The notes below the pieces were generated by a model that saw nothing but the letters and a program-made list of their open reading frames with translations, was not told the origin of the DNA and ran no database searches. From Candidatus Geohabitans tengchongensis (GTDB taxonomy: Bacteria > Sysuimicrobiota > Sysuimicrobiia > Sysuimicrobiales > Humicultoraceae), in NCBI GenBank assembly GCA_031459625.1, contig JAVKIH010000008.1, positions 18,359 through 82,358 of the forward strand: DNA of 64,000 nt, written 5' to 3'. Made by a program: the position numbers and the translations under genes. Below, in pieces: positions 9,270-64,000 of this stretch (positions within the stretch are counted from its first letter, which is position 1; the number at the start of each line of letters is the position of its first letter).

Positions 9270-11300
9270 GTGGCGTCGCGCCTGCGGCTTCCGCTCGCCT
9301 GCCTGCTCCTGCTCCAGCTTGTTTCTGCCCCTCCGCCTGCCCGCTCCGGCGCGGCCGCCGGCTCGCAGACGGATGGAGAGCCCGCCGCCACTTACGCCCG
9401 GGGCCTGGAGTCGGCGGCGCGCGGCGAGTGGCAGGTGGCCGTCGCCGCCTTTGACGGGCTCGTGCGCGCGGGCTCGATGCTGCCCTATGCGCGGTTCCAC
9501 CGCGGGAGGGCCCGGCTGGCCGTGGGCGACGTCCGCGGTGGAGCGGAGGACCTGGCGGCGGTGGCGCGGGACCAGGCTCCTCCTGCGCTCCAACGTCGCG
9601 CCCGCCTGCGCCTGGCGGAGGCTCGGCTGCGGCTGGGGCGGACCGCGGAGGCCGCCGCAGGGCTGCGGGCGGAGGTGGCGCGTCCCGAGTACTACCCGCT
9701 CGTCGTCGACACCGCGCTGGCTCGCATGCCGGAGCGGGCTGACCTGGCGGAGGCGTGGTGGCTGCTGGCCCGGGCCCTCCGGGGGCCGGACCAGCGTGCG
9801 GCGGCGCGGGCGGCGATGGTGGCCGGATGGGGGTTCCCCGAGCAGGCCCGCGCCCCTCAGGCCCGCCGGGCCGCCACTGCCTGGCTCGGGCGTCATCCAC
9901 GCCCCGCCGACCTGCCCGCGGAGGCGCACCTGGCGCGGGCGGTGTGGCTGTGGGGACGGGGGAGCTTCGCCGAGGCGCGCACGGCCATCGTCCGTGCCGT
10001 GCGCCGCCCGCCCCGCGCGCCGGCCGCAGCGGCCCAGGCGTGGTTCGTCTGGGGCGTGCAGCACCTCGGCGCGGACCCGCGCGCGGCCGCCGGGGCGATC
10101 GCCCGTGCCGTGGCGCTGGCCGGTCGCCTGGGCATGGACCCGGGCACGGCACCCTACTGGCAGGCGCGGGCGCTGCTGCGCGGCGGCGACGAGGCCGGGG
10201 CCGCGCGGGTCGCCGAAGGGCTGCAGCGTCGCGACGCACGCCAGGCCGCGCGCATCGCCCTCGACCTCGCGCTGGCGGCGGAGCGGCGCGGCGACCTCAC
10301 CACTGCCGAGCGGTGGCTGCGGGTCGCTGCGCAGGCGCGGGAGGGCCTGAACGCCGAGGAGGCGCGCTGGCGCCTGGGGTGGGTGGCGTGGCGCGCCGGG
10401 CGGTCGGAGGAGGCGCGGGCGCGCTGGGTCCAGGCCGCGCAGACCGAGCCGCGCGTGGCCCGCGCGGCGGCCGCGCTCTACTGGGCGGCGCGGGCCACAC
10501 CCGACCGCAGCGAACGCCTCCGGCTCCTCCAATCCGCCGCGCAATCCCCTCCCTGGAGCCTCTACGCGGCGCTGGCCAGGGAGCGTCTGGGACTGGGGAC
10601 GACGCTGGTGCCGCCGGGCGCGCTGTCCGACAGCTCCTCCAGCCCCCCTGCGGGCAGCGCCGCCGAGCGCACGGCGCTGGCCCGTGCTCTTCTGGAGGCG
10701 CGGGCCTCCGGTGAGGCTGCGGAAGCCGCCGCCTGGGCGGGGGACCGGGTGACGCAGGCCACCGCCCTGCACGCCGCCGGCCGTCACCCCGAGGCCATCC
10801 GCATCGCCGAGGAGCTCCTCTTCGACGACCTTGCCGCACTCCACCTGGCCTATCCCCGCCTCTTCGCGCAGGCGGTGGCGGAGGAGGCCCGGCGCGCGGG
10901 CCTGCCGGCGGCGCTCCTCTTCGCGCTCGTCCGGGAGGAGAGCCGCTTCGACGCGCAGGCGGTCTCGCCGGCGGGCGCGGTAGGCCTCACCCAGGTCACG
11001 CCGGGCACGGCGGCAGGTCTGGCCGGCCGTCCGCTCCCGGTGGACGAGCTGCTGCGCCCGGCGGTGAACCTGCGCCTGGGCGCCACCTACCTGGCCCGCC
11101 AGCTCCGCCGCTTCCGCGGGAACGAGGTGCTGGCGCTCATCGCCTACAACGCGGGGCCGGGGGTGGCGGCACGCCTGGCCCGCACCCTCCCGCTGGACGA
11201 CCTCCCCGCCGCGCTCGAGACCATCCCCATCCGGGAGACCCGCGGGTACGTCTACCGGGTCTTGCAGGGCCGGCGGATCTACGCCGCCCTGGGGCGCTGA
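9270..11300 (+). CDS. Lytic transglycosylase (SLT domain) with N-terminal TPR-like superhelical region
   Basis: GTG start gives signal peptide VASRLRLPLACLLLLQLVSA. C-terminus ALVREESRFDAQAVSPAGAVGLTQVTPGTA...ALIAYNAGPG is the SLT catalytic domain (ES...GLMQ/AYNAG motifs). Confidence 0.75.
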   Translation: MASRLRLPLACLLLLQLVSAPPPARSGAAAGSQTDGEPAATYARGLESAARGEWQVAVAAFDGLVRAGSMLPYARFHRGRARLAVGDVRGGAEDLAAVARDQAPPALQRRARLRLAEARLRLGRTAEAAAGLRAEVARPEYYPLVVDTALARMPERADLAEAWWLLARALRGPDQRAAARAAMVAGWGFPEQARAPQARRAATAWLGRHPRPADLPAEAHLARAVWLWGRGSFAEARTAIVRAVRRPPRAPAAAAQAWFVWGVQHLGADPRAAAGAIARAVALAGRLGMDPGTAPYWQARALLRGGDEAGAARVAEGLQRRDARQAARIALDLALAAERRGDLTTAERWLRVAAQAREGLNAEEARWRLGWVAWRAGRSEEARARWVQAAQTEPRVARAAAALYWAARATPDRSERLRLLQSAAQSPPWSLYAALARERLGLGTTLVPPGALSDSSSSPPAGSAAERTALARALLEARASGEAAEAAAWAGDRVTQATALHAAGRHPEAIRIAEELLFDDLAALHLAYPRLFAQAVAEEARRAGLPAALLFALVREESRFDAQAVSPAGAVGLTQVTPGTAAGLAGRPLPVDELLRPAVNLRLGATYLARQLRRFRGNEVLALIAYNAGPGVAARLARTLPLDDLPAALETIPIRETRGYVYRVLQGRRIYAALGR

Positions 11301-11410
11301 CGCTCCTGGAACCCTGACGCCCCTGGAGCGCTAACGCCCTGGCGCGGTGACGCGCCCAGGAGCGCCCGACGGGCCCCGGAGCGCCGACGGGCCCCGGAAA
11401 GCGCGGACGC
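11298..11410. repeat. Degenerate tandem array (~6 units of ~18 bp, core TGACGC/CGACGG...GGAGCGC)
   Basis: tgacgctcctggaaccc / tgacgcccctggagcgc / taacgccctggcgcgg / tgacgcgcccaggagcgcc / cgacgggccccggagcgc / cgacgggccccggaaagcg, immediately after the SLT stop. Confidence 0.35.
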
Positions 11411-56491: not shown

Positions 56492-57465
56492 CCGCGGGCG
56501 CAGCGCCGGCAGAGCCGGCGTCTGTCCTCCCCCGCTTCGTGGTGGTACGGGTGCGGGCGGCGCCGGCGGCGGCCGAGGCGGCGGCGGCTCTCCTGCACGA
56601 GGCGGCCCCTCCGGGCGTGGAGGAGCGGCGCCAGGGGGACGACGTGGTCCTGGTCGCCTATCTGCCCGCAGAGCTCGCGCCCCGCCTGGTGTCCGGCCTG
56701 CGCGCGCGCCTCGAGGCCCTCCCGCGCTACGGGCTCGGGGAGGCGCCCACCGTGGCGGTGGAGCCGCTGGCCGAGGAGGAGTGGGCCACGGCCTGGCGCC
56801 GCCACTTCCACCCCTTCCCGGTCGGCCGGCGCCTCTGGATCGCGCCCTCGTGGGCGCCCGGGGACCCGCCCGACGGACGGCTGGCCGTCCGCATCGACGC
56901 CGGATTGGCCTTCGGCAGCGGCCTGCACGCCTCGACGCGTCTGTGCCTGGAGCTCCTCGAGGACCTGGTCCGGCCCGGCGTCACCGTAGTGGATGTGGGC
57001 ACCGGCTCCGGCATCCTGGCGGTGGCGGCGGCGAGGCTGGGAGCGGCGCGGGTGGTGGCCACCGACCTCGACCCGGTGGCGGCCCAGGCCGCGGCGCAGG
57101 CGGTCCGGGCGAACGACCTGCGCGGTGTCGTCGCCGTCGTGGTGGCCGACCTGCTCGCTCCGGTACGTCGCCCCATGGACCTGATCGTGGCCAACCTCAC
57201 CGCGGACCTGCTCGAGCGCCTGGCGCTGCACGTGCCCGCGGCGCTCTCCCCGGAGGGCCGGTTCATCGCCTCGGGGATCGCCGCCGCGCAGGCCGCGCGG
57301 GTCCGGGAGGCGCTCGCCGCGGCGGGGCTGGCAGTGGTGCGCGAGCGCGTGCGAGAAGGGTGGCACGCGCTGGTGGCGCAGCTGTTGCCCGAGGGGCGGG
57401 CGTCGATGGCGCAGCCGCAGTCGGACGGATCAGCGTGGGCAGAGTCGTCGTCCGTCGCGCGGTGA
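56458..57465 (+). CDS. prmA: Ribosomal protein L11 methyltransferase
   Basis: WRRHFHPFPVGRRLWIAPSW, LAFGSGLHASTRLCLELLE, VVDVGTGSGILAVAAARLGA, ANLTADLL. Only ATG available, overlapping the dnaJ end. Confidence 0.85.
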   Translation: MEENEGPLHGLTAGAAPAEPASVLPRFVVVRVRAAPAAAEAAAALLHEAAPPGVEERRQGDDVVLVAYLPAELAPRLVSGLRARLEALPRYGLGEAPTVAVEPLAEEEWATAWRRHFHPFPVGRRLWIAPSWAPGDPPDGRLAVRIDAGLAFGSGLHASTRLCLELLEDLVRPGVTVVDVGTGSGILAVAAARLGAARVVATDLDPVAAQAAAQAVRANDLRGVVAVVVADLLAPVRRPMDLIVANLTADLLERLALHVPAALSPEGRFIASGIAAAQAARVREALAAAGLAVVRERVREGWHALVAQLLPEGRASMAQPQSDGSAWAESSSVAR

Positions 57466-58208
57466 CCGTGACCCGGCGCTTCCTCGTGCCGTCCGAAGCC
57501 CTCGAGGCCGACGAGGTGCGGCTGCCGCCCGAGGAGTCGCACCACGCCGCCGTGGTGCTGCGGCTGCGGCGGGGGGAGCGCGTCGTCCTCTTCGACGGGC
57601 GCGGGGTAGAGGCGCTGGTGGAGCTCACCCGGGTCGAGCCCCGCGAGGTGCGCGCGCGGGTGGTCGCCCGGTCGGCGGCGTCGGCGCGCGGACCGACGGT
57701 GCAGGTAACGCTGGCGCAGGGGATCCCCAAGGGCGGCAAGATGGACGACGTGATCCGCATGGGGACCGAGGTGGGCGTGGCCCGCTTCGTCCCGCTCCTC
57801 ACGCGCCGCGCGCTGGCCCGGCCCTCGGCGGCGCGCCTGGCCCGGTGGCGGCGCATCGCGGCCGAGGCGGCCAAGCAGTCGCGTCGGCTCACCGTCCCGG
57901 AGGTGACCGACCCGCTGCCGCTGCCGGCCCTGTGGGCCGGGGAGCGGGCGGGTCCCCTGCTCATGCCCTGGGAGGAGGAACGGGCCGGGATCGGCGAGGT
58001 GCTGCCGCGCCTGGGACCGGTGCGCGCGGTGACGGTGGCGGTGGGGCCGGAGGGGGGCTTCGCCCCCGAGGAGGTGGCGGAGGCGCGCGCGCACGGGGCG
58101 GTGACGGTCTCGTTGGGGCCGACGATCCTGCGGACTGAGACGGCGGGGGTAGTGACGGTGGCCATGGTGCTCTACGAGTTGAGCCTGCGCCGGATCGAGG
58201 AGCGCTGA
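57462..58208 (+). CDS. rsmE: 16S rRNA (uracil1498-N3)-methyltransferase
   Basis: TRRFLVPSEALEADEVRLPPEESHHAAVVLRLRRGERVVLFDGRG and C-terminal SPOUT fold (VAVGPEGGFAPEEV, SLGPTILRTETA). GTG overlapping the prmA stop (alternative GTG at 57468). Confidence 0.85.
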   Translation: MTVTRRFLVPSEALEADEVRLPPEESHHAAVVLRLRRGERVVLFDGRGVEALVELTRVEPREVRARVVARSAASARGPTVQVTLAQGIPKGGKMDDVIRMGTEVGVARFVPLLTRRALARPSAARLARWRRIAAEAAKQSRRLTVPEVTDPLPLPALWAGERAGPLLMPWEEERAGIGEVLPRLGPVRAVTVAVGPEGGFAPEEVAEARAHGAVTVSLGPTILRTETAGVVTVAMVLYELSLRRIEER

Positions 58209-58287
58209 TGCGTGCGGGGCGGCCGGGTTCCCGTTACACCGGTGTGACGGCGGCCGTCGTATAGTGAGGGGTGGAGGTGAGGACCCG

Positions 58288-58743
58288 ATGCGCTTCGTCA
58301 CCGTGCTCGGTGTGGTCGGCCTGCTGCTCCTGGGGCTGGCCGGCGTGGGCTATCCGGAATACAACTACCAGCAGCAGACCCCCGCCGCGCCTGCCGCGGG
58401 GGTGAAGCAGCAGATCCAGACGGCGGCCACCCACTCCGGGTTCGCCGCCGGCGGGCAGTCGCTGGCCTACGTGCAGCAGCACCTGGGCCATGCCCTCAAC
58501 TGCATCGAGGGCAAGGGCGGGCGGAACTTCAACGCGGCCTGGGGGCACGTCTGCGAGGGGCAGGGGAACGGCATCCTCAACGACCTCCGGGGGGTCTCCG
58601 GCGGTGCGGCCGTGCGCCCGCTGGTGGAGCACGCCGACGGCCTGGCTGTCACCGGGGTCAAGACCCGCGACCTGGCCACGGCGCGGGCCGCAGCGGCGGG
58701 CGTCAGCGCTCTGCTCAAGGTGGCCGCGGAGTACCTGAAGTAA
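58288..58743 (+). CDS. Hypothetical secreted protein (151 aa, two Cys)
   Basis: MRFVTVLGVVGLLLLGLAGVG signal/anchor; mature part Gln/Ala/Gly-rich with CIEGKGGRNFNAAWGHVCEGQGNG. No family recognisable. Convergent overlap with the nucleotidyltransferase gene. Confidence 0.4.
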   Translation: MRFVTVLGVVGLLLLGLAGVGYPEYNYQQQTPAAPAAGVKQQIQTAATHSGFAAGGQSLAYVQQHLGHALNCIEGKGGRNFNAAWGHVCEGQGNGILNDLRGVSGGAAVRPLVEHADGLAVTGVKTRDLATARAAAAGVSALLKVAAEYLK

Positions 58744-59827
58744 CGGCCCCCCACAGCCGACGGAGCCAGCGGCGGCGTCCTGCGGCGAGCGGCTGGGGGA
58801 TCCACACCAGCCGGCCCACCCACCGCAGGAAGTCCGCAGGGGCCTCTCCTCCCAGCCACCGCAGGAGCCCCACCTGCACGATAGCGCTGAGGGCAGCCTC
58901 CTCCCGCAGGAGGCGGGCCTGCAGGCGGGCGGTCAGGCGGCGCGCCAGATAGGGCCACCGTCCCCCCTCCAGCACCGCCAGGGCCTCTGCCGGCACCGGT
59001 GCGCCGAACAGGTCGGCCGCCAGCGCCACCGCCACCTGGACGGTGCGGCGCGCCTCCACGCAGACGGCACCGGCGAAGGTCCAGTCCACGCCGCCGCGCG
59101 CCGCCACTTCGGCGATGTCGCGGATGTAGCGGGCGCGGGGGCGGCCGTACCACAGCTCGCGCATCCAGAAGACGGCCAGCCCCACGATCAGGTCGGCGGG
59201 CGCGGGGAGGAGGGCCTGGGCGCCGGCCACGTCTACCGGTCTCGCCCGGCAGGCCACGGCGTCGTGGTCGAGCGGCAGGAGGTGCGGGTAGCCGGCATAG
59301 CGCCAGTGCAGGTCCACCGGCAGGGTCAGGCCTGACGGCGGCATGTACCCGCGGGCGCTACGCCAAGTGCGGTCGGCCGCGCTGGGGGCTCCGCCGGCGA
59401 TGCGGTAGCCCAGCGCGCAGAGCGCCCGGTGCGCGGCGTTGACCGTCTCCGGGGCGACGAGGAGGTCCAGGTCGTGCATGGGGCGCAGCGCGGGATCGGG
59501 GTAGGTTGCCCGCGCCAGCGCCGCGCCCTTCAGCAGGAGCGGGCGGACCCCTTCACGGTTCAGGGCCGAGAGCACCGCGGCCAGCTCCATCTCCACCCGG
59601 ACCGCCCGCTGCGCGGCCCGCTCGGACGCGGAGGCCAGCTCGCGCGCCACCGGCCCGGGCACGGTCACCCCGGCCCGCCGGATGCCGTCCCAGAGCAGCG
59701 GGATGACCTGTTCCCGCCTCGCCAGGCGATGCACGGCGTCCCAGTCGGTGGGGAGGTCCGGCGGGAGGGGCTCGAGGTGCAGCAGCCGGAGGAAGGTCCG
59801 CTCGAACGGGTAGAGGCGCGGCGGCAT
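58715..59827 (-). CDS. Nucleotidyltransferase family protein (PF14907-like, as found in kinase-containing lasso-peptide-type clusters)
   Basis: MPPRLYPFERTFLRLLHLEP...LLKGAALARATYPDPALRPMHDLDLLVAPETVNAAHRALCALGY; the hG..R...DLDLLV nucleotidyltransferase core and ~370-aa size match the 'uncharacterised nucleotidyltransferase' family. Confidence 0.6.
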   Translation of the reverse strand: MPPRLYPFERTFLRLLHLEPLPPDLPTDWDAVHRLARREQVIPLLWDGIRRAGVTVPGPVARELASASERAAQRAVRVEMELAAVLSALNREGVRPLLLKGAALARATYPDPALRPMHDLDLLVAPETVNAAHRALCALGYRIAGGAPSAADRTWRSARGYMPPSGLTLPVDLHWRYAGYPHLLPLDHDAVACRARPVDVAGAQALLPAPADLIVGLAVFWMRELWYGRPRARYIRDIAEVAARGGVDWTFAGAVCVEARRTVQVAVALAADLFGAPVPAEALAVLEGGRWPYLARRLTARLQARLLREEAALSAIVQVGLLRWLGGEAPADFLRWVGRLVWIPQPLAAGRRRWLRRLWGAVTSGTPRPP

Positions 59828-59856
59828 CAGGGCCGGACGCGGCCACGGCGCCGTGC

Positions 59857-60663
59857 TCAATAGGCGCTGAGCGTGCCGGACCGCCGGGCCTCCGCAAAGC
59901 TCCAGTGCAGGGCGAGCAAGCCCAGCGGGACGAGCGCGGCGGCAAAGGCGGCCAGGACGAGCACCTCGCCGCGCAGGCCGGCCGCCCCTGTCCCCTCCAG
60001 CAGGACGAGCCGCATGGCGCGCAGCGCGTGGGTCATCGGCAGCCACTCCCCCAGCCGCTGCAGGGGTGCCGGGAGGACGGTGGTGGGATAGAAGAGGCCG
60101 CCCACCAACGCCGAGGCGGCGGCGATCGGCGCGGTCAGCGGATCGGGCTGGCGGGTGAGGAGGACGTAGGCTGCGGCGAGCCAGCCCACGGCCAGGAAGG
60201 TCGCCCCCGAGAGCCCCAGGACCACGAGGGCGGCGGCCAGGTTGGCTCGAGCGATCGGCAGGCCGAAGAAGACCTCCCCCACCCACAGGGAGAGGGCCGC
60301 CTGCCCGAGGCCCAGCAGGACCGGCCACAGCGACAGGCCCAGCGCCAGCGTCCCCACTGCACAGGGCGTGGCGGCCAGGCTCTCCAGCGTGCCGGCCACC
60401 TGCTCCTGGCGCAGCGCGGCCGGGCAGGCGCGCATCACCGCGGTGAGGAAGCCGAAGAAGGCCACGCCGACGAGCGCGAAGGCGAAGTAGCCCGCCGGGC
60501 GCCCCGATGCCGGATCCGGTGCGGGGACCAGGCGTCCCAGGTAGTAGAGGGTGGCGGCGGTGAACCCCACGCCCGCGGCCTGCCAGGCCGGCGCCAGGCG
60601 CGCCGTCCCCGCGGCGATGCTGTCACGCCGGAGAAACGCCCACAACTGGAAGAGCAGGGCCAC
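59857..60663 (-). CDS. ABC-2 type transporter permease (exporter membrane subunit)
   Basis: 268-aa 6-TM ABC-2 permease starting VALLFQLWAFLRRDS (GTG) inside ORF 59857..61053. Downstream of, and overlapping, its ATPase partner. Confidence 0.75.
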   Translation of the reverse strand: MALLFQLWAFLRRDSIAAGTARLAPAWQAAGVGFTAATLYYLGRLVPAPDPASGRPAGYFAFALVGVAFFGFLTAVMRACPAALRQEQVAGTLESLAATPCAVGTLALGLSLWPVLLGLGQAALSLWVGEVFFGLPIARANLAAALVVLGLSGATFLAVGWLAAAYVLLTRQPDPLTAPIAAASALVGGLFYPTTVLPAPLQRLGEWLPMTHALRAMRLVLLEGTGAAGLRGEVLVLAAFAAALVPLGLLALHWSFAEARRSGTLSAY

Positions 60664-61408
60664 GCGTCTCCTCCACGGCCGCCTCGTAGCACGCCCGCAC
60701 GCGCGCCGCTCCACCCTCCCCGACGGCCACCACCTCGCGCAGGCGCCCGCCTGCGAGGATGCCCACACGGTCGCACACGCCGGCCGCCTCCTCGAAGTCG
60801 TGCGTCGCCAGCAGAACGGTGCGGCCCTCTGTGCTGGCCAGGTGGCGTACCAGCGCCCGGAAGGCGTCAGCCGCCTGGGGGTCGAGGCTGCGCGTCGGCT
60901 CGTCGAGGCAGAGGACGGGCTGGCCGCCCACGAGCGCCCGGGCGAGCAGGAGCCGCTGGCGCATCCCCGTCGAGTACCGGGCCACGACCTGGTCGGCCGC
61001 CTCGGTGAGTCCCACCTGCCCGAGCGCCGCTTCGGCCCGCCGGCGCGCTTCACCCGGCGCGCAGCCGAGCAGGCCCGCGAAGAAGATCAGGTTGTCCCGC
61101 CCGGAGAGCCGCCAGTAACAGGCGCGCTCGTCCCCCGTGACCAGCGCCACGCGCCGCCGCACCAGCGTCGGCTCCCGCACCACGTCCGCGCCCAGGATGC
61201 GGGCCGTGCCGCCGGACGGGAGGAGGAGGGTGGTCAGGATCTTGAGCAGAGTGGTCTTGCCGGCGCCGTTCGGACCCAGCAGGCCGAAGATCTCTCCCGC
61301 CTCGACCTGCAGGGTCACGTCCCACAGGGCGTCCACCGGGCGATGGGCCCCGAGCGGCCAGCGCCCGCGGAAGCGCTTGGTCAGGGAGGAGGTCTCGACC
61401 GCCGCCAC
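60623..61408 (-). CDS. ABC transporter ATP-binding protein (exporter)
   Basis: Walker A GPNGAGKTT, Q-loop, signature YSTGMRQRLLLARAL, Walker B LCLDEPTRSLD, H-loop LATHD. Start taken at GTG (VAAVETSSLTKRF); further in-frame GTGs lie upstream within a tandem repeat. Confidence 0.8.
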   Translation of the reverse strand: MAAVETSSLTKRFRGRWPLGAHRPVDALWDVTLQVEAGEIFGLLGPNGAGKTTLLKILTTLLLPSGGTARILGADVVREPTLVRRRVALVTGDERACYWRLSGRDNLIFFAGLLGCAPGEARRRAEAALGQVGLTEAADQVVARYSTGMRQRLLLARALVGGQPVLCLDEPTRSLDPQAADAFRALVRHLASTEGRTVLLATHDFEEAAGVCDRVGILAGGRLREVVAVGEGGAARVRACYEAAVEETRGPALPVVGVSPA

Positions 61409-61473
61409 GACCCATTCAGTACCGGGGAGGACCGGAGACTTCCTGTCTACGGTGCGTGCCGTCGGCCGCCGCT

Positions 61474-61560
61474 GTTCCCCGCCGGTCTTGCGCCCTCGGG
61501 CCGCCACCGTTCCCGCGCCGGTCTTGCGCGCCCTCGGCCGCCACCACCCTCGGCCGCCAC
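61474..61560. repeat. Tandem direct repeat (~36 bp x 2.4) in the 5' region of the exporter ATPase gene
   Basis: gttccccgccggtcttgcgccctcgggccgccacc / gttcccgcgccggtcttgcgcgccctcggccgccacc / accctcggccgccac. On the coding strand each unit supplies an in-frame GTG-GCG-GCC (VAA) codon run. Confidence 0.45.
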
Positions 61561-61666
61561 GGCTCCTGTGTCGTTTGCACGATGGTACTCCTGCATTCGA
61601 CGGATAGGCGGTGCGTGCTGCCGTCCATACACTGGAAAGGCGCCAGGAACACCCAGGGGGTCATCA

Positions 61667-62311
61667 ATGTGGTGGCGAGGGGGGATTCGCTCGGCAAGCA
61701 TCCCACTCGCGGGAGGGGTCGAGTCGATCTCTCCTCGCGTCCCTCCACCGCCACCACCTCCACCGCCAGCACCGCCCCCCGGCGGCGGGCCTCCCGGCGC
61801 CATCCTGATCCCCCTCATCCCGCTGATCCTGCTGATCATCGGCGCTCCACCGGTGGTGGAGCAGCCACCTCCGCCGGTGGTCCAGGTCACCCCGACGCCT
61901 CCCCCTGAGGCCGCCCCGACACCGTCACCCGCGGCCGAAGCGCCCCCGTCGCCTCCTCCGCCTTCCCCGGCGCCGACTCCAGGTGTCCTCCCGCCCACCG
62001 TGGCGCCCACAGCGCCGCCGGCGCCGCCCGCTGCCGCTGTGACGCCCGGCCCGCCCGCGCGCCCCCGGCCCACGCCGATCGTCCTCGGCCCCCCCGCACC
62101 GGCGCCCGCACCTGCCGCGCCTGCACCGCCTGCTCCTGCGGCTGCAGCGCCGCCACCGGTCCGGGCGGTGGCCACGCCACCCCCCGCCGCCCCGCCGCCC
62201 GGGGCGGTGCTTCCCTTCGGAGGCGCCCGCCTGTGGATCCCGGTGGCGCTGGGCCTGGGCCTGGTGGGCACGGGGTACCTCCTCCTCCGCCGGAACGCCA
62301 GGGCGGGGTGA
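61667..62311 (+). CDS. Pro/Ser/Thr-rich membrane protein with C-terminal sorting-signal-like tail
   Basis: MWWRGG..., poly-Pro tract, TM (AILIPLIPLILLIIGA), ~120-aa Pro/Ala/Thr/Ser-rich extended region, then ...GAVLPFGGARLWIPVALGLGLVGTGYLLLRRNARAG (motif, hydrophobic segment, basic tail). Stop overlaps the sortase GTG (GTGA). Confidence 0.5.
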   Translation: MWWRGGIRSASIPLAGGVESISPRVPPPPPPPPPAPPPGGGPPGAILIPLIPLILLIIGAPPVVEQPPPPVVQVTPTPPPEAAPTPSPAAEAPPSPPPPSPAPTPGVLPPTVAPTAPPAPPAAAVTPGPPARPRPTPIVLGPPAPAPAPAAPAPPAPAAAAPPPVRAVATPPPAAPPPGAVLPFGGARLWIPVALGLGLVGTGYLLLRRNARAG

Positions 62312-62937
62312 GCGCCCTGCGGACGCTGGGTCTTGTCCTGATGGTGGTGGGCGGGCTGCTACTGGCGGCACCCGCCTTCTGGTCGGTCTACACGGGGCGG
62401 GGGGCCGAAGCGGCGCAGACCGCGGCCCTGGCCGAGTGGGAGCGCGCCCTGACCGACGGCCAGACGGTAGCGGAGGAACGGACGACCCAGGTGGATCGCA
62501 GGGCGGCTGCCGGCACCCTGCGCCCGGCCGAAGGGCTCGTCCTCACCATCCCGCGTCTGGGGTTGCGCCGCTTCGTCCCAGAAGGGGCCCGGCCCGAACA
62601 CCTGCGCCGCTTCGGCCTGGGACGCATCTCCTGGACGGCCCGGCCCGGCCAGGCCGGTGTGGTCGGCATCGCCGGTCACCGCACCACGCATGGGGCGCCC
62701 TTCTTCCGCCTGCCCGCCCTGCGGCCCGGCGACGAGGTGCTGCTCGAGGACGGGCGGCAGCGCTATCTCTACCGCGTGGCGGAGCAGCGCACCGTCCGCC
62801 CGACCGCGGTGGAGGTCCTGCGCGGTGAGGCCGGCCGCCGTCGCCTCGCCCTGGTCACCTGTACCCCGGCCTACAGCGCCGCCTACCGCCTCGTGGTGCT
62901 GGCCGACCTGCAGCGCGTCCAGGTGGCGGCCCCGTGA
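62308..62937 (+). CDS. Sortase (class E-like transpeptidase)
   Basis: N-terminal TM anchor, catalytic His (VVGIAGHRTTHGAPFFRL), and active-site Cys in LALVTCTP (TLxTC motif). Confidence 0.8.
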   Translation: MSALRTLGLVLMVVGGLLLAAPAFWSVYTGRGAEAAQTAALAEWERALTDGQTVAEERTTQVDRRAAAGTLRPAEGLVLTIPRLGLRRFVPEGARPEHLRRFGLGRISWTARPGQAGVVGIAGHRTTHGAPFFRLPALRPGDEVLLEDGRQRYLYRVAEQRTVRPTAVEVLRGEAGRRRLALVTCTPAYSAAYRLVVLADLQRVQVAAP

Positions 62938-62947
62938 CCGCGGTCGC

Positions 62948-63280
62948 GTGACTGGCCCCGTGACCGGCGGTCCCGTAACCGCTCCGTCCAGTGCGCCGGG
63001 CGACTCGGGCCCCAGGCTGGCCGCCCGCTTTGCCACGGAGGCCGCCCGCTTTGCCGCGGAAGTCGTCCTCTTCGACCCGGAAGACGGCCGGCTGGTCGTC
63101 CTCTCGGGCGCTGCCGCCAGCGTCTGGACCGCGTGCGACGGCCGGGCCACCGACGAGGTGGCCCGGGCGGCGGGCCTGGGGGTGGGCCGCGTGCGCCGGA
63201 TCCTGCGCGACCTCGAGCGCGCAGGTGCCGTGGCCCGCGAGGGCGCAGGGTGGCGCCGGCGGGTGTGCGTGGAGGTCTGA
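62948..63280 (+). CDS. PqqD-family protein (RiPP recognition element-type peptide-binding chaperone)
   Basis: EVVLFDPEDGRLVVLSGAAASVWTACDGRATDEVARAAGLGVGRVRRILRDLERAGAV is a textbook PqqD/RRE domain. ~35-aa Gly/Pro/Thr-rich N-terminal extension; GTG start (62948 or 62960) just after the sortase stop. Confidence 0.7.
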   Translation: MTGPVTGGPVTAPSSAPGDSGPRLAARFATEAARFAAEVVLFDPEDGRLVVLSGAAASVWTACDGRATDEVARAAGLGVGRVRRILRDLERAGAVAREGAGWRRRVCVEV

Positions 63281-63282
63281 GC

Positions 63283-64000
63283 GTGAGCGCGCATGCGGGC
63301 CTGCGTGTGGCGCAGCACGAGGCCCGGGGCTCCGAGGGCGAGCGGGAGGGCGTGGCCGCTCTTTCGGGCGCGCCCGGTCTTGCGGGCGCGCCTGCGGAGG
63401 CCGGGTCTCGCAGCGGGTGGCGCAAAACCGGCTGGACCGTACGGGTGCACGCGGCGCCGGGCTCACCGCAGGGCTTGAGGGGAGCCCGGCTGCAGACACT
63501 GCTCGCCGCGCTGGACCTCTGCGGGCTCCGCCTGCCTGCCCTCGAGGTGGAGCTGGGCGCTGACGGGTGGGCCGTCGGCCGCGTCGGGGGAGAGGCCCTG
63601 TGGCGCATCCGCCTGCCGGAGACGCGAGCGCTCTCGGTGCTGCTCGGGCAGTGCACCGCCACCGCCCTCCACTTGGCCGACCGTCTCTTCCTGCACGCCG
63701 GCGTGGTGGCGGTGCGCGGACGGGCGGTGGTGCTGGCCGGCCCGAGCGGGGCGGGGAAGACCAGCCTGGTGGCCGCGCTGCTGGCGCAGGGGGCGACCTA
63801 CCTCTCCGACGAGGTGGCCTGGCTCCCCCTGCCGGACAGTGTGCCGACCAGTGTGCAGGTGCCGGACGGCGTGCGGGCGCCGGACCGTGTACAGAGCCGG
63901 CACGACGGTGGCCCGTTCAAGGGAGCGCCGTGCGCCTTCCCCTTCGCCCTGCCGCTCGCCATCAAACCGTGGACGTTGCGCGCTCTCGGGACCCTGCCCT
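63283..64000 (+). CDS. HprK-related P-loop Ser kinase (3' partial; continues beyond window end)
   Basis: Hand translation of + frame from GTG 63283 is stop-free to the window edge and contains LFLHAGVVAVRGRAVVLAGPSGAGKTSLVAALLAQGATYLSDEVAW. This is the HPr kinase/phosphorylase C-terminal P-loop domain, as in the HprK-like kinases of lasso-peptide-type clusters. It is not in the ORF track because no stop lies in the window. Confidence 0.6.
   Translation, partial: MSAHAGLRVAQHEARGSEGEREGVAALSGAPGLAGAPAEAGSRSGWRKTGWTVRVHAAPGSPQGLRGARLQTLLAALDLCGLRLPALEVELGADGWAVGRVGGEALWRIRLPETRALSVLLGQCTATALHLADRLFLHAGVVAVRGRAVVLAGPSGAGKTSLVAALLAQGATYLSDEVAWLPLPDSVPTSVQVPDGVRAPDRVQSRHDGGPFKGAPCAFPFALPLAIKPWTLRALGTLP

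What the first reader, a model, noticed from the sequence alone, without database searches (positions are those of the whole stretch)
62934..63285. PqqD-family gene with a low-complexity N-terminal extension, tightly coupled to the sortase (upstream) and the kinase (downstream)
The PqqD domain proper is ~75 aa. The reading frame from the first GTG adds ~35 residues (VTGPVTGGPVTAPSSAPGDSGPRLAARFATEAARF) before it. The gene starts 11 nt after the sortase stop, and its own stop is 2 nt before the kinase GTG. Stand-alone RRE proteins normally sit beside the enzyme they recruit a peptide to, so the spacing argues that the kinase is the RRE-dependent enzyme. The N-terminal extension could be a linker, or a mis-called start (GTG at 62960 is an alternative).
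Basis: partly seen in the sequence, partly recalled or inferred. Interest (0 to 1): 0.5.

Follow-up and report, generated by a model that had tools for sequence, protein, structure and literature searches.

The report
Sortase-linked peptide-recognition protein and kinase
The gene encodes a small peptide-recognition (RRE/PqqD-like) protein that always sits between a sortase and an HPr-kinase-like enzyme in an undescribed conserved cassette, which also encodes its own proline-rich surface protein. The odd N-terminal tail is only a lineage-specific by-product of a short DNA duplication.

Summary
An in-frame PqqD-family ORF ends at 63280. Its first GTG (62948) lies 11 nt after the sortase stop, and its stop lies 2 nt before the kinase GTG (63283), which has a GGAGG 7 nt upstream.

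The likely start is GTG 62960 (106 aa). It is conserved in all relatives, whereas 62948 is not. No ATG/GTG/TTG lies further downstream before the domain, so a tail must be translated. That tail is low-confidence in AlphaFold2, varies in length and is absent from most of the family (83-88 aa). It arose from a 26-nt tandem duplication of the ancestral sortase-stop/PqqD-start GTGA overlap, plus a 21-nt internal duplication.

The larger result is the context. In 41 distinct loci the order is sortase, then PqqD-like, then HprK-like kinase (34/34 and 28/28 where sequence allows). A Pro-rich LPxTG-type protein precedes them, and an ABC-2 exporter, an NTP_transf_5 gene and a CAP-domain gene usually accompany them. 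One lineage fuses the PqqD-like domain to the kinase. The nearest solved relative is the lasso RRE TbiB1, and a lasso HprK-like kinase is known to be RRE-accelerated. No lasso cyclase is present here.

I infer RRE-guided phosphorylation of the sortase substrate's conserved N-terminal motif.

The parts
58715..59860 (-). NTP_transf_5 (PF14907) nucleotidyltransferase-like gene, an optional cassette member
   Evidence: Pfam PF14907 scores 151 bits on the identical L002 protein. A custom HMM hit covers window 58724-59860. The gene is present in 9 of 16 loci that have at least 5 kb of upstream sequence.
59857..60663 (-). ABC-2 type permease
   Evidence: Pfam ABC2_membrane was recorded for this gene. 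Custom HMM hit. Present in 13 of 16 loci.
60623..61408 (-). ABC transporter ATPase (DrrA-like)
   Evidence: NCBIfam TIGR01188 scores 217 bits. Custom HMM hit.
61667..62311 (+). Pro/Ala-rich 214-aa protein, the dedicated sortase substrate and the proposed RRE/kinase substrate. Public gene calls miss it or replace it with an antisense ORF.
   Evidence: It has an ATG start with AGGGGG upstream. Its stop overlaps the sortase GTG as GTGA. Homologous proteins lie upstream of the sortase in all lineages where the sequence is available. It has no Pfam or NCBIfam hit.
61667..61744 (+). Conserved N-terminal leader-like motif (MWWRGGIRSASIPLAGGVESISPRVP) with an invariant Ser. It lies before a G/P linker and a hydrophobic segment.
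   Evidence: Alignment A5 has invariant G6, I12, G17, S22 and P23. An HMM built from 5 sequences recovers the motif in every lineage whose N-terminus is present.
62210..62311 (+). C-terminal sorting signal: LPFGG, then ARLW, a transmembrane segment and an RRNARAG tail
   Evidence: Read directly from the sequence. The family motif is LP[FY][TGA]G..LW followed by a transmembrane segment and a basic tail, seen in 24 lineages.
62308..62937 (+). Sortase (class E-like), 209 aa
   Evidence: Pfam Sortase scores 98.6 bits. NF033747 class E scores 114 bits, below its 160 cut-off. The exact protein occurs on 16 contigs.
62929..62987 (+). 26-nt tandem duplication (2.3 copies) of the sortase-stop/PqqD-start junction. 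GTG 62934 (in the GTGA overlap) is copied as GTG 62960.
   Evidence: Tandem Repeats Finder result and direct reading. Copy number varies in L009, L013 and L014.
62960..63280 (+). PqqD-like RRE gene, 106 aa. An alternative, non-conserved GTG at 62948 gives 110 aa.
   Evidence: Pfam PqqD is above its gathering score. The best solved relative by profile is TbiB1, E = 2e-6. In the AlphaFold2 model, residues 31-106 have pLDDT 88-97 and residues 1-30 are below 50. Start-codon inventory; start conservation.
63019..63060 (+). 21-nt tandem duplication (AARFATE/AARFAAE) inside the region that aligns to RRE strand beta-1. It is absent in L013 and L014.
   Evidence: Tandem Repeats Finder and alignments A1 and A2.
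63271..63275 (+). GGAGG Shine-Dalgarno sequence for the kinase, inside the 3' end of the PqqD gene and 7 nt before GTG 63283
   Evidence: Read directly from the sequence. Conserved in all five aligned sequences.
63283..64000 (+). HprK-like P-loop kinase, cut by the window end (full length 341 aa in L002). The first ~45 residues and a ~36-residue internal insert are lineage-specific.
   Evidence: TIGR04352 gives a partial hit of 46-47 bits against a cut-off of 200. The family alignment A6 has invariant H138, G153, G156, G158, K159, T160 and D176. hhalign against the kinase of a lasso gene cluster gives 97.3% probability. HPrK/P 1KO7 is the best PDB match.

Best explanation
**The gene.** The gene at 62960-63280 encodes a cytoplasmic, stand-alone RRE (PqqD-like peptide-recognition domain). 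It is the third gene of a conserved operon: Pro-rich LPxTG-type protein, sortase, RRE, HprK-like kinase. A divergent ABC-2 exporter and an NTP_transf_5 gene are optional members, and other lineages also carry a CAP-domain gene.

**What is shown.**
- Family membership by sequence.
- Invariant gene order with overlapping or near-overlapping reading frames.
- A natural RRE::kinase fusion.
- Kinase catalytic residues conserved with the same spacing as in lasso-peptide kinases.

**What is inferred.**
- The RRE binds the conserved roughly 25-residue N-terminal motif of the co-encoded surface protein. This motif sits on the cytoplasmic side, before the first hydrophobic segment.
- The RRE then presents the motif to the kinase, which phosphorylates the invariant Ser (S22 in the window protein).
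- Where NTP_transf_5 is present, it may decorate the phosphate further, as PsmN does in pseudomycoidin.
- The protein is then exported and processed by the sortase at LP[FY][TG]G.

**The N-terminal tail.** The tail (about 17 residues, plus a 7-residue duplication) has no conserved role. A 26-nt tandem duplication of the ancestral GTGA stop/start overlap moved the start 26 nt downstream. Slippage in this 74% G+C lineage keeps changing the tail's length.
For: **Identity of the protein**
- Pfam PqqD scores 28.7 bits against a gathering score of 23.4.
- The best hit of the family profile in the PDB is the lasso leader-binding RRE TbiB1 (E = 2e-6). Weaker hits go to TfuB1, PqqD and a 'PqqD family protein'.

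**Start codon and tail**
- No canonical start lies between 62960 and 63158.
- GTG 62960 is conserved and 62948 is not.
- Indels are in frame and variation is biased to third codon positions.
- In an exhaustive phmmer search, relatives are mostly 81-96 aa and their matches begin at query residues 26-36.
- The PqqD-like gene is typically 83-88 aa across loci.
- AlphaFold2 pLDDT is below 50 for residues 1-30.
- Tandem repeats are documented.

**Cassette conservation**
- Gene lists.
- 45 metagenome loci, annotated with custom HMMs.
- PqqD-like upstream of the kinase in 34/34 loci and sortase upstream in 28/28.

**RRE-kinase partnership**
- The kinase start lies at -10, -4 or -1 relative to the PqqD stop in most lineages.
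- The fusion protein P0031 is in the same context.
- BsfK phosphorylation is 'greatly accelerated' by the RRE BsfB1. Its motif H148-G163-G166-G168-K169-S170-D186-D187 (PMC10368454) has the same spacing as H138-G153-G156-G158-K159-T160-D176-E177 here.
- hhalign to the kinase of a lasso gene cluster gives 97.3% probability.

**Substrate**
- The N-motif and its Ser are conserved.
- No other conserved non-enzyme gene is present, and there is no room for a separate precursor. In L020 the ABC-substrate spacer is only 93 nt.

**PsmK/PsmN precedent:** PMC6993621.
Against: - No binding, docking or phosphorylation was tested. The structure tool returns no complex or interface data.
- The Pfam match covers only the first half of the PqqD model. 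Other family members score at or below the gathering threshold, 18-24.5 bits.
- Known RRE clients are short peptides, not 170-270-residue membrane-spanning proteins.
- The lasso kinases PadeK, ThcoK, SyanK and PsmK target a C-terminal Ser, which this substrate lacks. BsfK, however, targets Ser3 of the core.
- The N-motif only loosely resembles the lasso YxxPxL leader motif.
- The kinase N-terminus in this lineage is uncertain. Codon-position signal is weak over 63283-63430.
Confidence: 0.6

Rival explanations
1. The small protein is an ordinary winged-helix DNA-binding regulator of the operon, not a peptide-binding RRE.
Against: RREs are themselves winged-helix folds, so the fold hits do not discriminate. 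The sequence profile's best PDB hit is the RRE TbiB1, ahead of any regulator. The gene is wedged between two enzymes with overlapping frames in 34/34 loci and is fused to the kinase in one lineage. The helix-3 arginines are not conserved across the family.
Confidence: 0.07
2. The RRE serves another enzyme of the cassette rather than the kinase, or in addition to it. The candidates are the NTP_transf_5 protein and the sortase.
For: The gene is as tightly coupled to the sortase (ancestral GTGA overlap) as to the kinase. B1 RREs in lasso systems are known to serve two enzymes (PMC9266682; PMC10368454).
Against: NTP_transf_5 is absent from 7 of the 16 loci with long upstream sequence, while the RRE-kinase pair is always present. 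The PqqD-like protein has no hydrophobic or signal segment and so should be cytoplasmic, whereas a sortase acts outside the membrane (established knowledge of sortases). The only fusion seen is to the kinase.
Confidence: 0.13
3. The RRE and kinase modify a peptide encoded elsewhere, or a non-peptide target, and their linkage to the sortase substrate reflects only shared regulation.
For: No experiment links the kinase to the Pro-rich protein. Most characterised relatives phosphorylate short lasso precursors.
Against: The flanking genes differ between lineages (arg genes, groES/EL, response regulators) while the substrate-sortase-RRE-kinase block stays constant. No lasso cyclase homologue occurs in about 0.5 Mb of cassette loci. 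The substrate carries a conserved cytoplasm-facing motif with an invariant Ser, which a sorting role does not explain.
Confidence: 0.12
4. The N-terminal tail is a functional linker or docking arm selected in this lineage.
For: The tail is translated: there is no downstream start and indels are in frame. A few distant relatives also carry S/A/P-rich tails, namely P0108, P0123 and L020.
Against: The tail's length differs among relatives that are 83-99% identical (99 to 115 aa). It is absent from most of the family. AlphaFold2 confidence is low. Its composition is what G+C-rich repeat DNA encodes, and the same lineage also has low-complexity inserts in the kinase.
Confidence: 0.08

Closest known systems
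Lasso-peptide tailoring module B1 (RRE) + K (HprK-like kinase) + N (nucleotidyltransferase): BsfB1/BsfK/BsfN, PadeK, ThcoK, PsmK/PsmN
   Same: - It has the same three protein types: a PqqD-like RRE, an HprK-like P-loop kinase with the H...GxxGxGK[ST]...D[DE] motif at identical spacing, and a PF14907-type nucleotidyltransferase. An ABC exporter is also present.
- The family profile's best solved relative is the lasso B1 protein TbiB1.
- The kinase profile aligns to the kinase of a Gemmatimonas lasso gene cluster at 97.3% probability.
- RRE-accelerated Ser phosphorylation has been demonstrated for BsfK/BsfB1 (PMC10368454).
   Different: - There is no lasso cyclase, no B2 peptidase and no short precursor in any locus.
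- The module is instead fixed to a sortase and a 170-270-residue LPxTG-type membrane/surface protein.
- The ABC transporter is a two-gene ABC-2 (DrrAB-like) type. The lasso gene cluster in L017 instead has a single 637-residue permease/ATPase.
- The RRE carries an extra conserved C-terminal beta-hairpin (W...WV).
HPr-rel-A system (NCBIfam TIGR04352 HprK-related kinase A with its PqqD-family chaperone). Its description is recalled from memory and was not checked.
   Same: An HprK-related kinase is paired with a PqqD-family protein. TIGR04352 is the best NCBIfam hit for the kinase.
   Different: The kinase scores 46-50 bits against a cut-off of 200. The PqqD-like protein does not hit that system's PqqD model at E <= 1. 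The match covers only the P-loop region.
SynChlorMet cassette ScmC/ScmD
   Same: Faint or weak PF27840 ScmC hits are recorded for the kinase. The PqqD protein's best NCBIfam hit is ScmD, TIGR04248.
   Different: The scores are far below the cut-offs (16.6 against 100). No radical-SAM or SPASM genes are present in the cassette.
Dedicated sortase-substrate pairs (class E sortases with LAxTG/LPxTG proteins)
   Same: The substrate gene lies immediately upstream of the sortase gene and overlaps it. The C-terminal signal has an LPxTG-like motif, a transmembrane segment and a basic tail.
   Different: About 10 of 24 lineages, including this window, have Gly instead of Thr at the cleavage position (LPFGG/LPYGG). 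The substrate also has a conserved N-terminal cytoplasmic motif. Cytoplasmic RRE and kinase genes are embedded in the operon.

Membership tests
PqqD / RRE (PF05402) | Match to Pfam PF05402 above the gathering score | tested here: met
   28.7 bits against 23.4, E = 1.6e-6, but only profile positions 1-38 of 67 are covered. Relatives score 17.9-24.5 bits.
PqqD / RRE (PF05402) | Sequence relationship to an RRE solved with its leader peptide | tested here: met
   The profile of A8 gives TbiB1 (5v1u/5v1v) as the top PDB hit, E = 2.1e-6, over profile positions 4-70.
PqqD / RRE (PF05402) | Three-stranded beta-sheet followed by three helices (RRE topology) | tested here: inconclusive
PqqD / RRE (PF05402) | Binds a leader or recognition sequence of a precursor peptide | not testable with these tools
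   The candidate ligand is the substrate's N-motif. No complex prediction or binding assay is available.
Lasso peptide biosynthetic gene cluster (B1 protein) | Co-located lasso cyclase (Asn-synthetase-like C protein) | tested here: not met
   No such gene appears in the gene lists. A phmmer search with a true lasso cyclase against all ORFs of about 0.5 Mb of cassette loci finds only itself.
Lasso peptide biosynthetic gene cluster (B1 protein) | Co-located B2 leader peptidase and a short precursor with YxxPxL...T(-2) | tested here: not met
   No transglutaminase-like gene is in the Pfam gene lists. The only conserved non-enzyme gene is the 170-270-residue LPxTG-type protein.
Lasso-type HprK-like peptide kinase | Catalytic motif H...GxxGxGK[ST]...DD with fixed spacing | tested here: met
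   H138, G153, G156, G158, K159, T160 and D176 are invariant; E177 is conserved in at least 90% of 74 sequences. The spacing of 15/6/16 residues equals that of BsfK H148/G163/K169-S170/D186 (PMC10368454). The second acidic residue is Glu, not Asp.
HprK-related kinase A (TIGR04352) | Score above the curated cut-off (200 bits) | tested here: not met
   45.9-50.1 bits, covering the P-loop region only.
SynChlorMet cassette (ScmC/ScmD) | Scores above cut-off and accompanying radical-SAM genes | tested here: not met
   TIGR04248 scores 16.6 against 100. No radical-SAM gene is in the cassette.
Sortase (PF04203; class E NF033747) | Sortase domain, and a score above the class E cut-off | tested here: inconclusive
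   Pfam Sortase scores 98.6 bits, so the domain criterion is met. NF033747 scores 114 against 160, so the class criterion is not met. The HRTTHG, LVTCTP and YRL motifs are visible in the translation.

The most novel reading that the evidence does not exclude
The recognition logic of RiPP biosynthesis, in which an RRE plus a tailoring kinase (with or without a nucleotidyltransferase) reads a leader-like motif, has been recruited to mature a sortase-anchored, proline-rich envelope protein. The N-terminal motif of a roughly 200-residue membrane protein would act as a built-in leader, whose phosphorylation (and possibly glycosyl-phosphorylation) gates or marks export and sortase processing. This would be the first RRE-dependent modification of a cell-surface protein, and the first cytoplasmic tailoring step hard-wired to a sortase.
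Probability: 0.35. Interest if true: 0.8.

Novelty: new variant of a known kind. Interest (0 to 1): 0.58.

Why it matters
RREs and HprK-like peptide kinases are so far known as parts of RiPP pathways, mainly lasso peptide pathways. Here the same module, without any lasso enzyme, is locked to a sortase and its private LPxTG-type substrate in at least 41 distinct loci from soil, sediment and hot-spring type metagenomes. No curated family (NCBIfam, Pfam) covers the substrate or names the cassette, and no paper was found that links these components.

If the inferred mechanism holds, it would do three things:
- extend RRE-guided modification from small natural-product peptides to envelope proteins;
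- give sortase biology a cytoplasmic pre-processing step;
- supply a concrete, testable substrate (a 25-residue motif with one invariant Ser) for an uncharacterised kinase family.

The specific feature that was flagged, the N-terminal tail, is ordinary. It is a repeat-derived, non-conserved appendage. It is also a warning about start-codon calls in 74% G+C metagenome-assembled genomes.

Tried and rejected
1. **Downstream start giving a minimal PqqD.** Rejected. No ATG/GTG/TTG lies in frame between 62960 and 63158; only a CTG at 63017.
2. **GTG 62948 as the start.** Judged unlikely, because it is GTT in L009 and L014.
3. **TTG 63475 as the kinase start** (the 277-aa call in some metagenome-assembled genomes). 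Rejected. It is not conserved (CTC or TAC in relatives), whereas GTG 63283 with its GGAGG is conserved. GTG 63307 and GTG 63352 remain possible.
4. **The 227 extra bases in L001.** These are a run of N plus a duplicated segment, so an assembly artefact.
5. **The genome-contig scan with the kinase alignment.** It was swamped by Walker-A pattern matches and returned one locus, a genuine Gemmatimonas lasso gene cluster that served only as a comparison.
6. **AlphaFold2 on the 5-sequence alignment.** Too shallow (pLDDT 55.9). It was repeated with 24 sequences.
8. **A PqqD+kinase fusion model to test docking.** Not attempted, because the structure tool reports no inter-domain confidence or coordinates.
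9. **The 151-aa secreted protein at 58288-58743 as a possible cassette member.** It has no Pfam or NCBIfam hit and no similarity to the 152-aa neighbour in L067, so it is treated as unrelated.
10. **Other scans.** Rfam found nothing in 57000-64000. The sigma-70 promoter and intrinsic-terminator scan of 61300-64000 found nothing. This fits one transcription unit but is weak evidence for this phylum.
11. **Literature searches.** Searches for sortase+PqqD+kinase, RRE-Finder+sortase, 'HprK-related kinase' and PF14907 found no description of the cassette.
Full report
**1. The observation**

The window has 74% G+C. The sortase gene (62308-62937) ends with TGA at 62935-62937. The next gene starts at GTG 63283, two bases after that stop, with GGAGG at 63271-63275 seven bases upstream. 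Pfam PqqD (PF05402) matches residues 38-74 at 28.7 bits against a gathering score of 23.4. The upstream protein is a sortase (98.6 bits), and the downstream one matches HprK-related kinase A only around its P-loop (46.8 bits against a cut-off of 200). The description is therefore correct. Coordinate 62934 is a GTG that overlaps the sortase stop (GTGA) but is out of frame.

**2. Start codon and N-terminal tail**

Between 62960 and 63158 there is no in-frame ATG, GTG or TTG. Any product with an intact domain must therefore start at 62960 or 62948.

Four related lineages (83-99% protein identity; P0001-P0004, loci L002, L009, L013, L014) were aligned at the DNA level.
- GTG 62960 is invariant, while 62948 is GTT in two lineages.
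- All indels are multiples of three.
- In 62960-63016 the variable sites fall 2/1/5 on codon positions 1/2/3.

Tandem Repeats Finder reports a 26-nt unit repeated 2.3 times at 62929-62987 and a 21-nt unit repeated twice at 63019-63060. The first repeat is a duplication of the sortase-stop/PqqD-start junction, so the out-of-frame GTG(A) at 62934 reappears as the conserved, in-frame GTG 62960. Relatives carry further copies of this GTGAC-containing junction repeat, which encodes GPVTG-like peptide repeats; this gives L009 four in-frame candidate starts (100-115 aa). The second repeat duplicates seven residues (AARFATE/AARFAAE) and is absent from L013 and L014.

An exhaustive phmmer search of 1.84 billion representative proteins found 34 hits. 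Most are 81-96 aa, and their matches begin at query residues 26-36, which correspond to target residues 3-12. Across 37 non-redundant loci the gene is typically 83-88 aa, and its conserved part starts -8 to +10 nt from the sortase stop. In the window lineage that distance is 79-109 nt. With a 24-sequence alignment, AlphaFold2 gives pLDDT 88-97 for residues 31-106 and below 50 for residues 1-30.

The tail is therefore real and translated, but it is lineage-specific, unstable in length and probably disordered. The most likely product is the 106-aa protein.

**3. What the protein is**

**4. The neighbourhood is a conserved cassette**

Exact-protein look-ups placed the window's genes on Armatimonadota metagenome-assembled genomes and gave the sequence beyond the window end. 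The full kinase is 341 aa. It is followed by argC, argJ, argB and argD, and upstream lie hrcA, dnaJ, prmA and rsmE. Between these housekeeping blocks the order is:
- (-) NTP_transf_5 (PF14907, 151 bits);
- (-) ABC-2 permease;
- (-) ABC ATPase;
- (+) a Pro-rich ORF;
- (+) sortase;
- (+) PqqD;
- (+) kinase.

A profile search with the kinase found about 85 unnamed relatives, typically 271-295 aa. Look-ups of six of them and a metagenome scan (45 loci) were annotated with custom HMMs. The result is 41 distinct kinase loci.
- All 34 with at least 350 nt of upstream sequence have the PqqD-like gene directly upstream.
- All 28 with at least 1 kb upstream have the sortase.
- Of 16 with at least 5 kb upstream, 13 have the ABC pair, 9 have NTP_transf_5 and 13 have a CAP-domain gene.

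Flanking genes differ between lineages, so the block behaves as a self-contained module. No lasso cyclase homologue occurs in about 0.5 Mb of these loci.

**5. RRE and kinase as partners**

In most lineages the kinase start overlaps the PqqD stop by 1, 4 or 10 nt. The window lineage has a 2-nt spacer with a good Shine-Dalgarno sequence. One lineage encodes a single 360-aa protein, P0031, in which the PqqD-like domain runs straight into the kinase. It was found on six contigs; the four shown come from four different sequencing runs and sit in the same substrate-sortase context. A more distant HprK-like protein, P0095, also carries an N-terminal PqqD-like region (19 bits, below threshold).

The kinase family keeps H138, G153, G156, G158, K159, T160 and D176 invariant, and E177 nearly so. 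The spacing is the same as in the catalytic motif reported for lasso kinases: H148-G163-G166-G168-K169-S170-D186-D187 in BsfK. For BsfK, phosphorylation of the precursor was 'greatly accelerated' by the RRE BsfB1 (PMC10368454). The family profile aligns to the kinase of a true lasso gene cluster from Gemmatimonas (L017, which has a lasso cyclase at 161 bits) with 97.3% probability. Its best PDB match is HPr kinase/phosphorylase.

**6. The likely peptide partner**

The ORF upstream of the sortase (61667-62311, 214 aa) is missed by public gene calls. They give either a 47-aa fragment or a 274-aa antisense ORF. It ends in ...AVLPFGGARLW, a hydrophobic segment and RRNARAG, and its stop overlaps the sortase start.

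Equivalent proteins in 24 lineages end in LP[FY][TGA]G-xxLW, a transmembrane segment and a basic tail. The counts are LPFTG 9, LPFGG 5, LPYGG 5, LPYTG 4 and LPFAG 1. Their middles are unalignable Pro/Ala/Gly-rich sequence.

Their N-termini, however, share a motif of about 25 residues. In the window it is MWWRGGIRSASIPLAGGVESISPRV; elsewhere it reads for example GIKIAQIPLSGGVRGFSPPV or GVTVQPILFHFGAVTNFSPPI. A Gly/Pro linker and a hydrophobic segment follow it. One Ser is present in every lineage.

By the positive-inside rule, this motif and the C-terminal tail face the cytoplasm. The RRE and the kinase, which have no signal sequences, would be there too. This is inference. No other conserved non-enzyme gene exists in the cassette, and in some loci there is no space for one.

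I therefore propose that the RRE binds this motif and the kinase phosphorylates the invariant Ser. Where NTP_transf_5 is present, it may add to the phosphate, as PsmN does (PMC6993621). These steps are inferred, not shown.

**7. Comparison with known systems**

The closest functional analogue is the B1/K/N tailoring set of phosphorylated lasso peptides. Membership in a lasso cluster fails, because no cyclase, B2 peptidase or short precursor is present. The curated HPr-rel-A and SynChlorMet families also fail on score. The substrate, the PqqD-like proteins and the NTP_transf_5 proteins hit no NCBIfam model. Literature searches found nothing that links a sortase with a PqqD/HprK pair.

I classify the cassette as a new variant of a known kind: a known recognition-plus-kinase module in a new genomic and probably functional setting.

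**8. Caveats**

- The RRE assignment rests on sequence profiles of modest strength.
- The kinase's first ~45 residues in this lineage show weak coding signal, so its exact start could be 63283, 63307 or 63352. All three lie within 72 nt of the PqqD stop.
- The cassette census is limited to what two pattern-based scans and twelve look-ups returned.
- The description of the HPr-rel-A system is from memory.

Noticed in passing
window 62210-62224; L020, L040, L048, L051, L055, L062 substrates: In about 10 of 24 lineages the sorting motif has Gly where LPxTG has Thr (LPFGG or LPYGG), and one lineage has LPFAG. That is the residue after which sortases cut, so these sortases may accept a non-Thr P1 residue.
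   Followed up: partly
window 61447-62271 (-) and 62168-62311 (+): Public gene calls replace the Pro-rich substrate gene with a 274-aa antisense ORF or a 47-aa fragment. The real gene (61667-62311) is missed because the sense and antisense frames share third-codon positions, which have an unusually low G+C content (0.70-0.75).
   Followed up: yes
window 63283-63420 and about 63823-63936; L009:10321-11364: The kinase of this lineage carries an extra N-terminal segment of about 45 residues and an internal insert of about 36 residues (LPLPDSVPTSVQVPDGVRAPDRVQSRHDGGPFKGAPCA). Both are absent from the rest of the family, and L009 has an additional VQVPDG repeat. This 74% G+C lineage seems prone to in-frame low-complexity insertions.
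   Followed up: partly
L067:1068-2150 (also L068-L070): A natural in-frame fusion of the PqqD-like domain to the kinase (P0031, 360 aa), sitting directly after the sortase.
   Followed up: yes
L018:2394-2999, L019:3008-3601, L020:2961-3620, L021:5816-6334: A CAP/SCP-domain (PF00188) secreted protein accompanies the cassette in 13 of 16 loci with long upstream sequence. It is missing from the window lineage, where an unrelated 151-aa secreted protein (window 58288-58743) lies next to NTP_transf_5. Its role is unknown.
   Followed up: partly
L001:about 11090-11320 (GCA_031458815.1 contig JAVKJR010000016.1): A run of N and a duplicated segment interrupt the kinase gene in this public assembly. 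It is a scaffolding artefact that shifts the gene call.
   Followed up: yes
L017:5924-11581: A Gemmatimonas contig carries a genuine lasso gene cluster: a lasso cyclase (161 bits), an HprK-like kinase, an NTP_transf_5-like gene and an ABC exporter. It served as a comparison set for the cassette.
   Followed up: partly
window 61470-61560: The divergent intergenic region between the ABC ATPase gene and the substrate gene contains direct repeats of about 30 nt (CCGGTCTTGCGC(G)CCCTCGGCCGCCACC). They might be regulatory sites or further slippage products.
   Followed up: no
P0095 (388 aa): A distant HprK-like protein has an N-terminal PqqD-like region (19 bits, below the Pfam threshold). This may be a second, independent RRE-kinase fusion outside this cassette family.
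   Followed up: no
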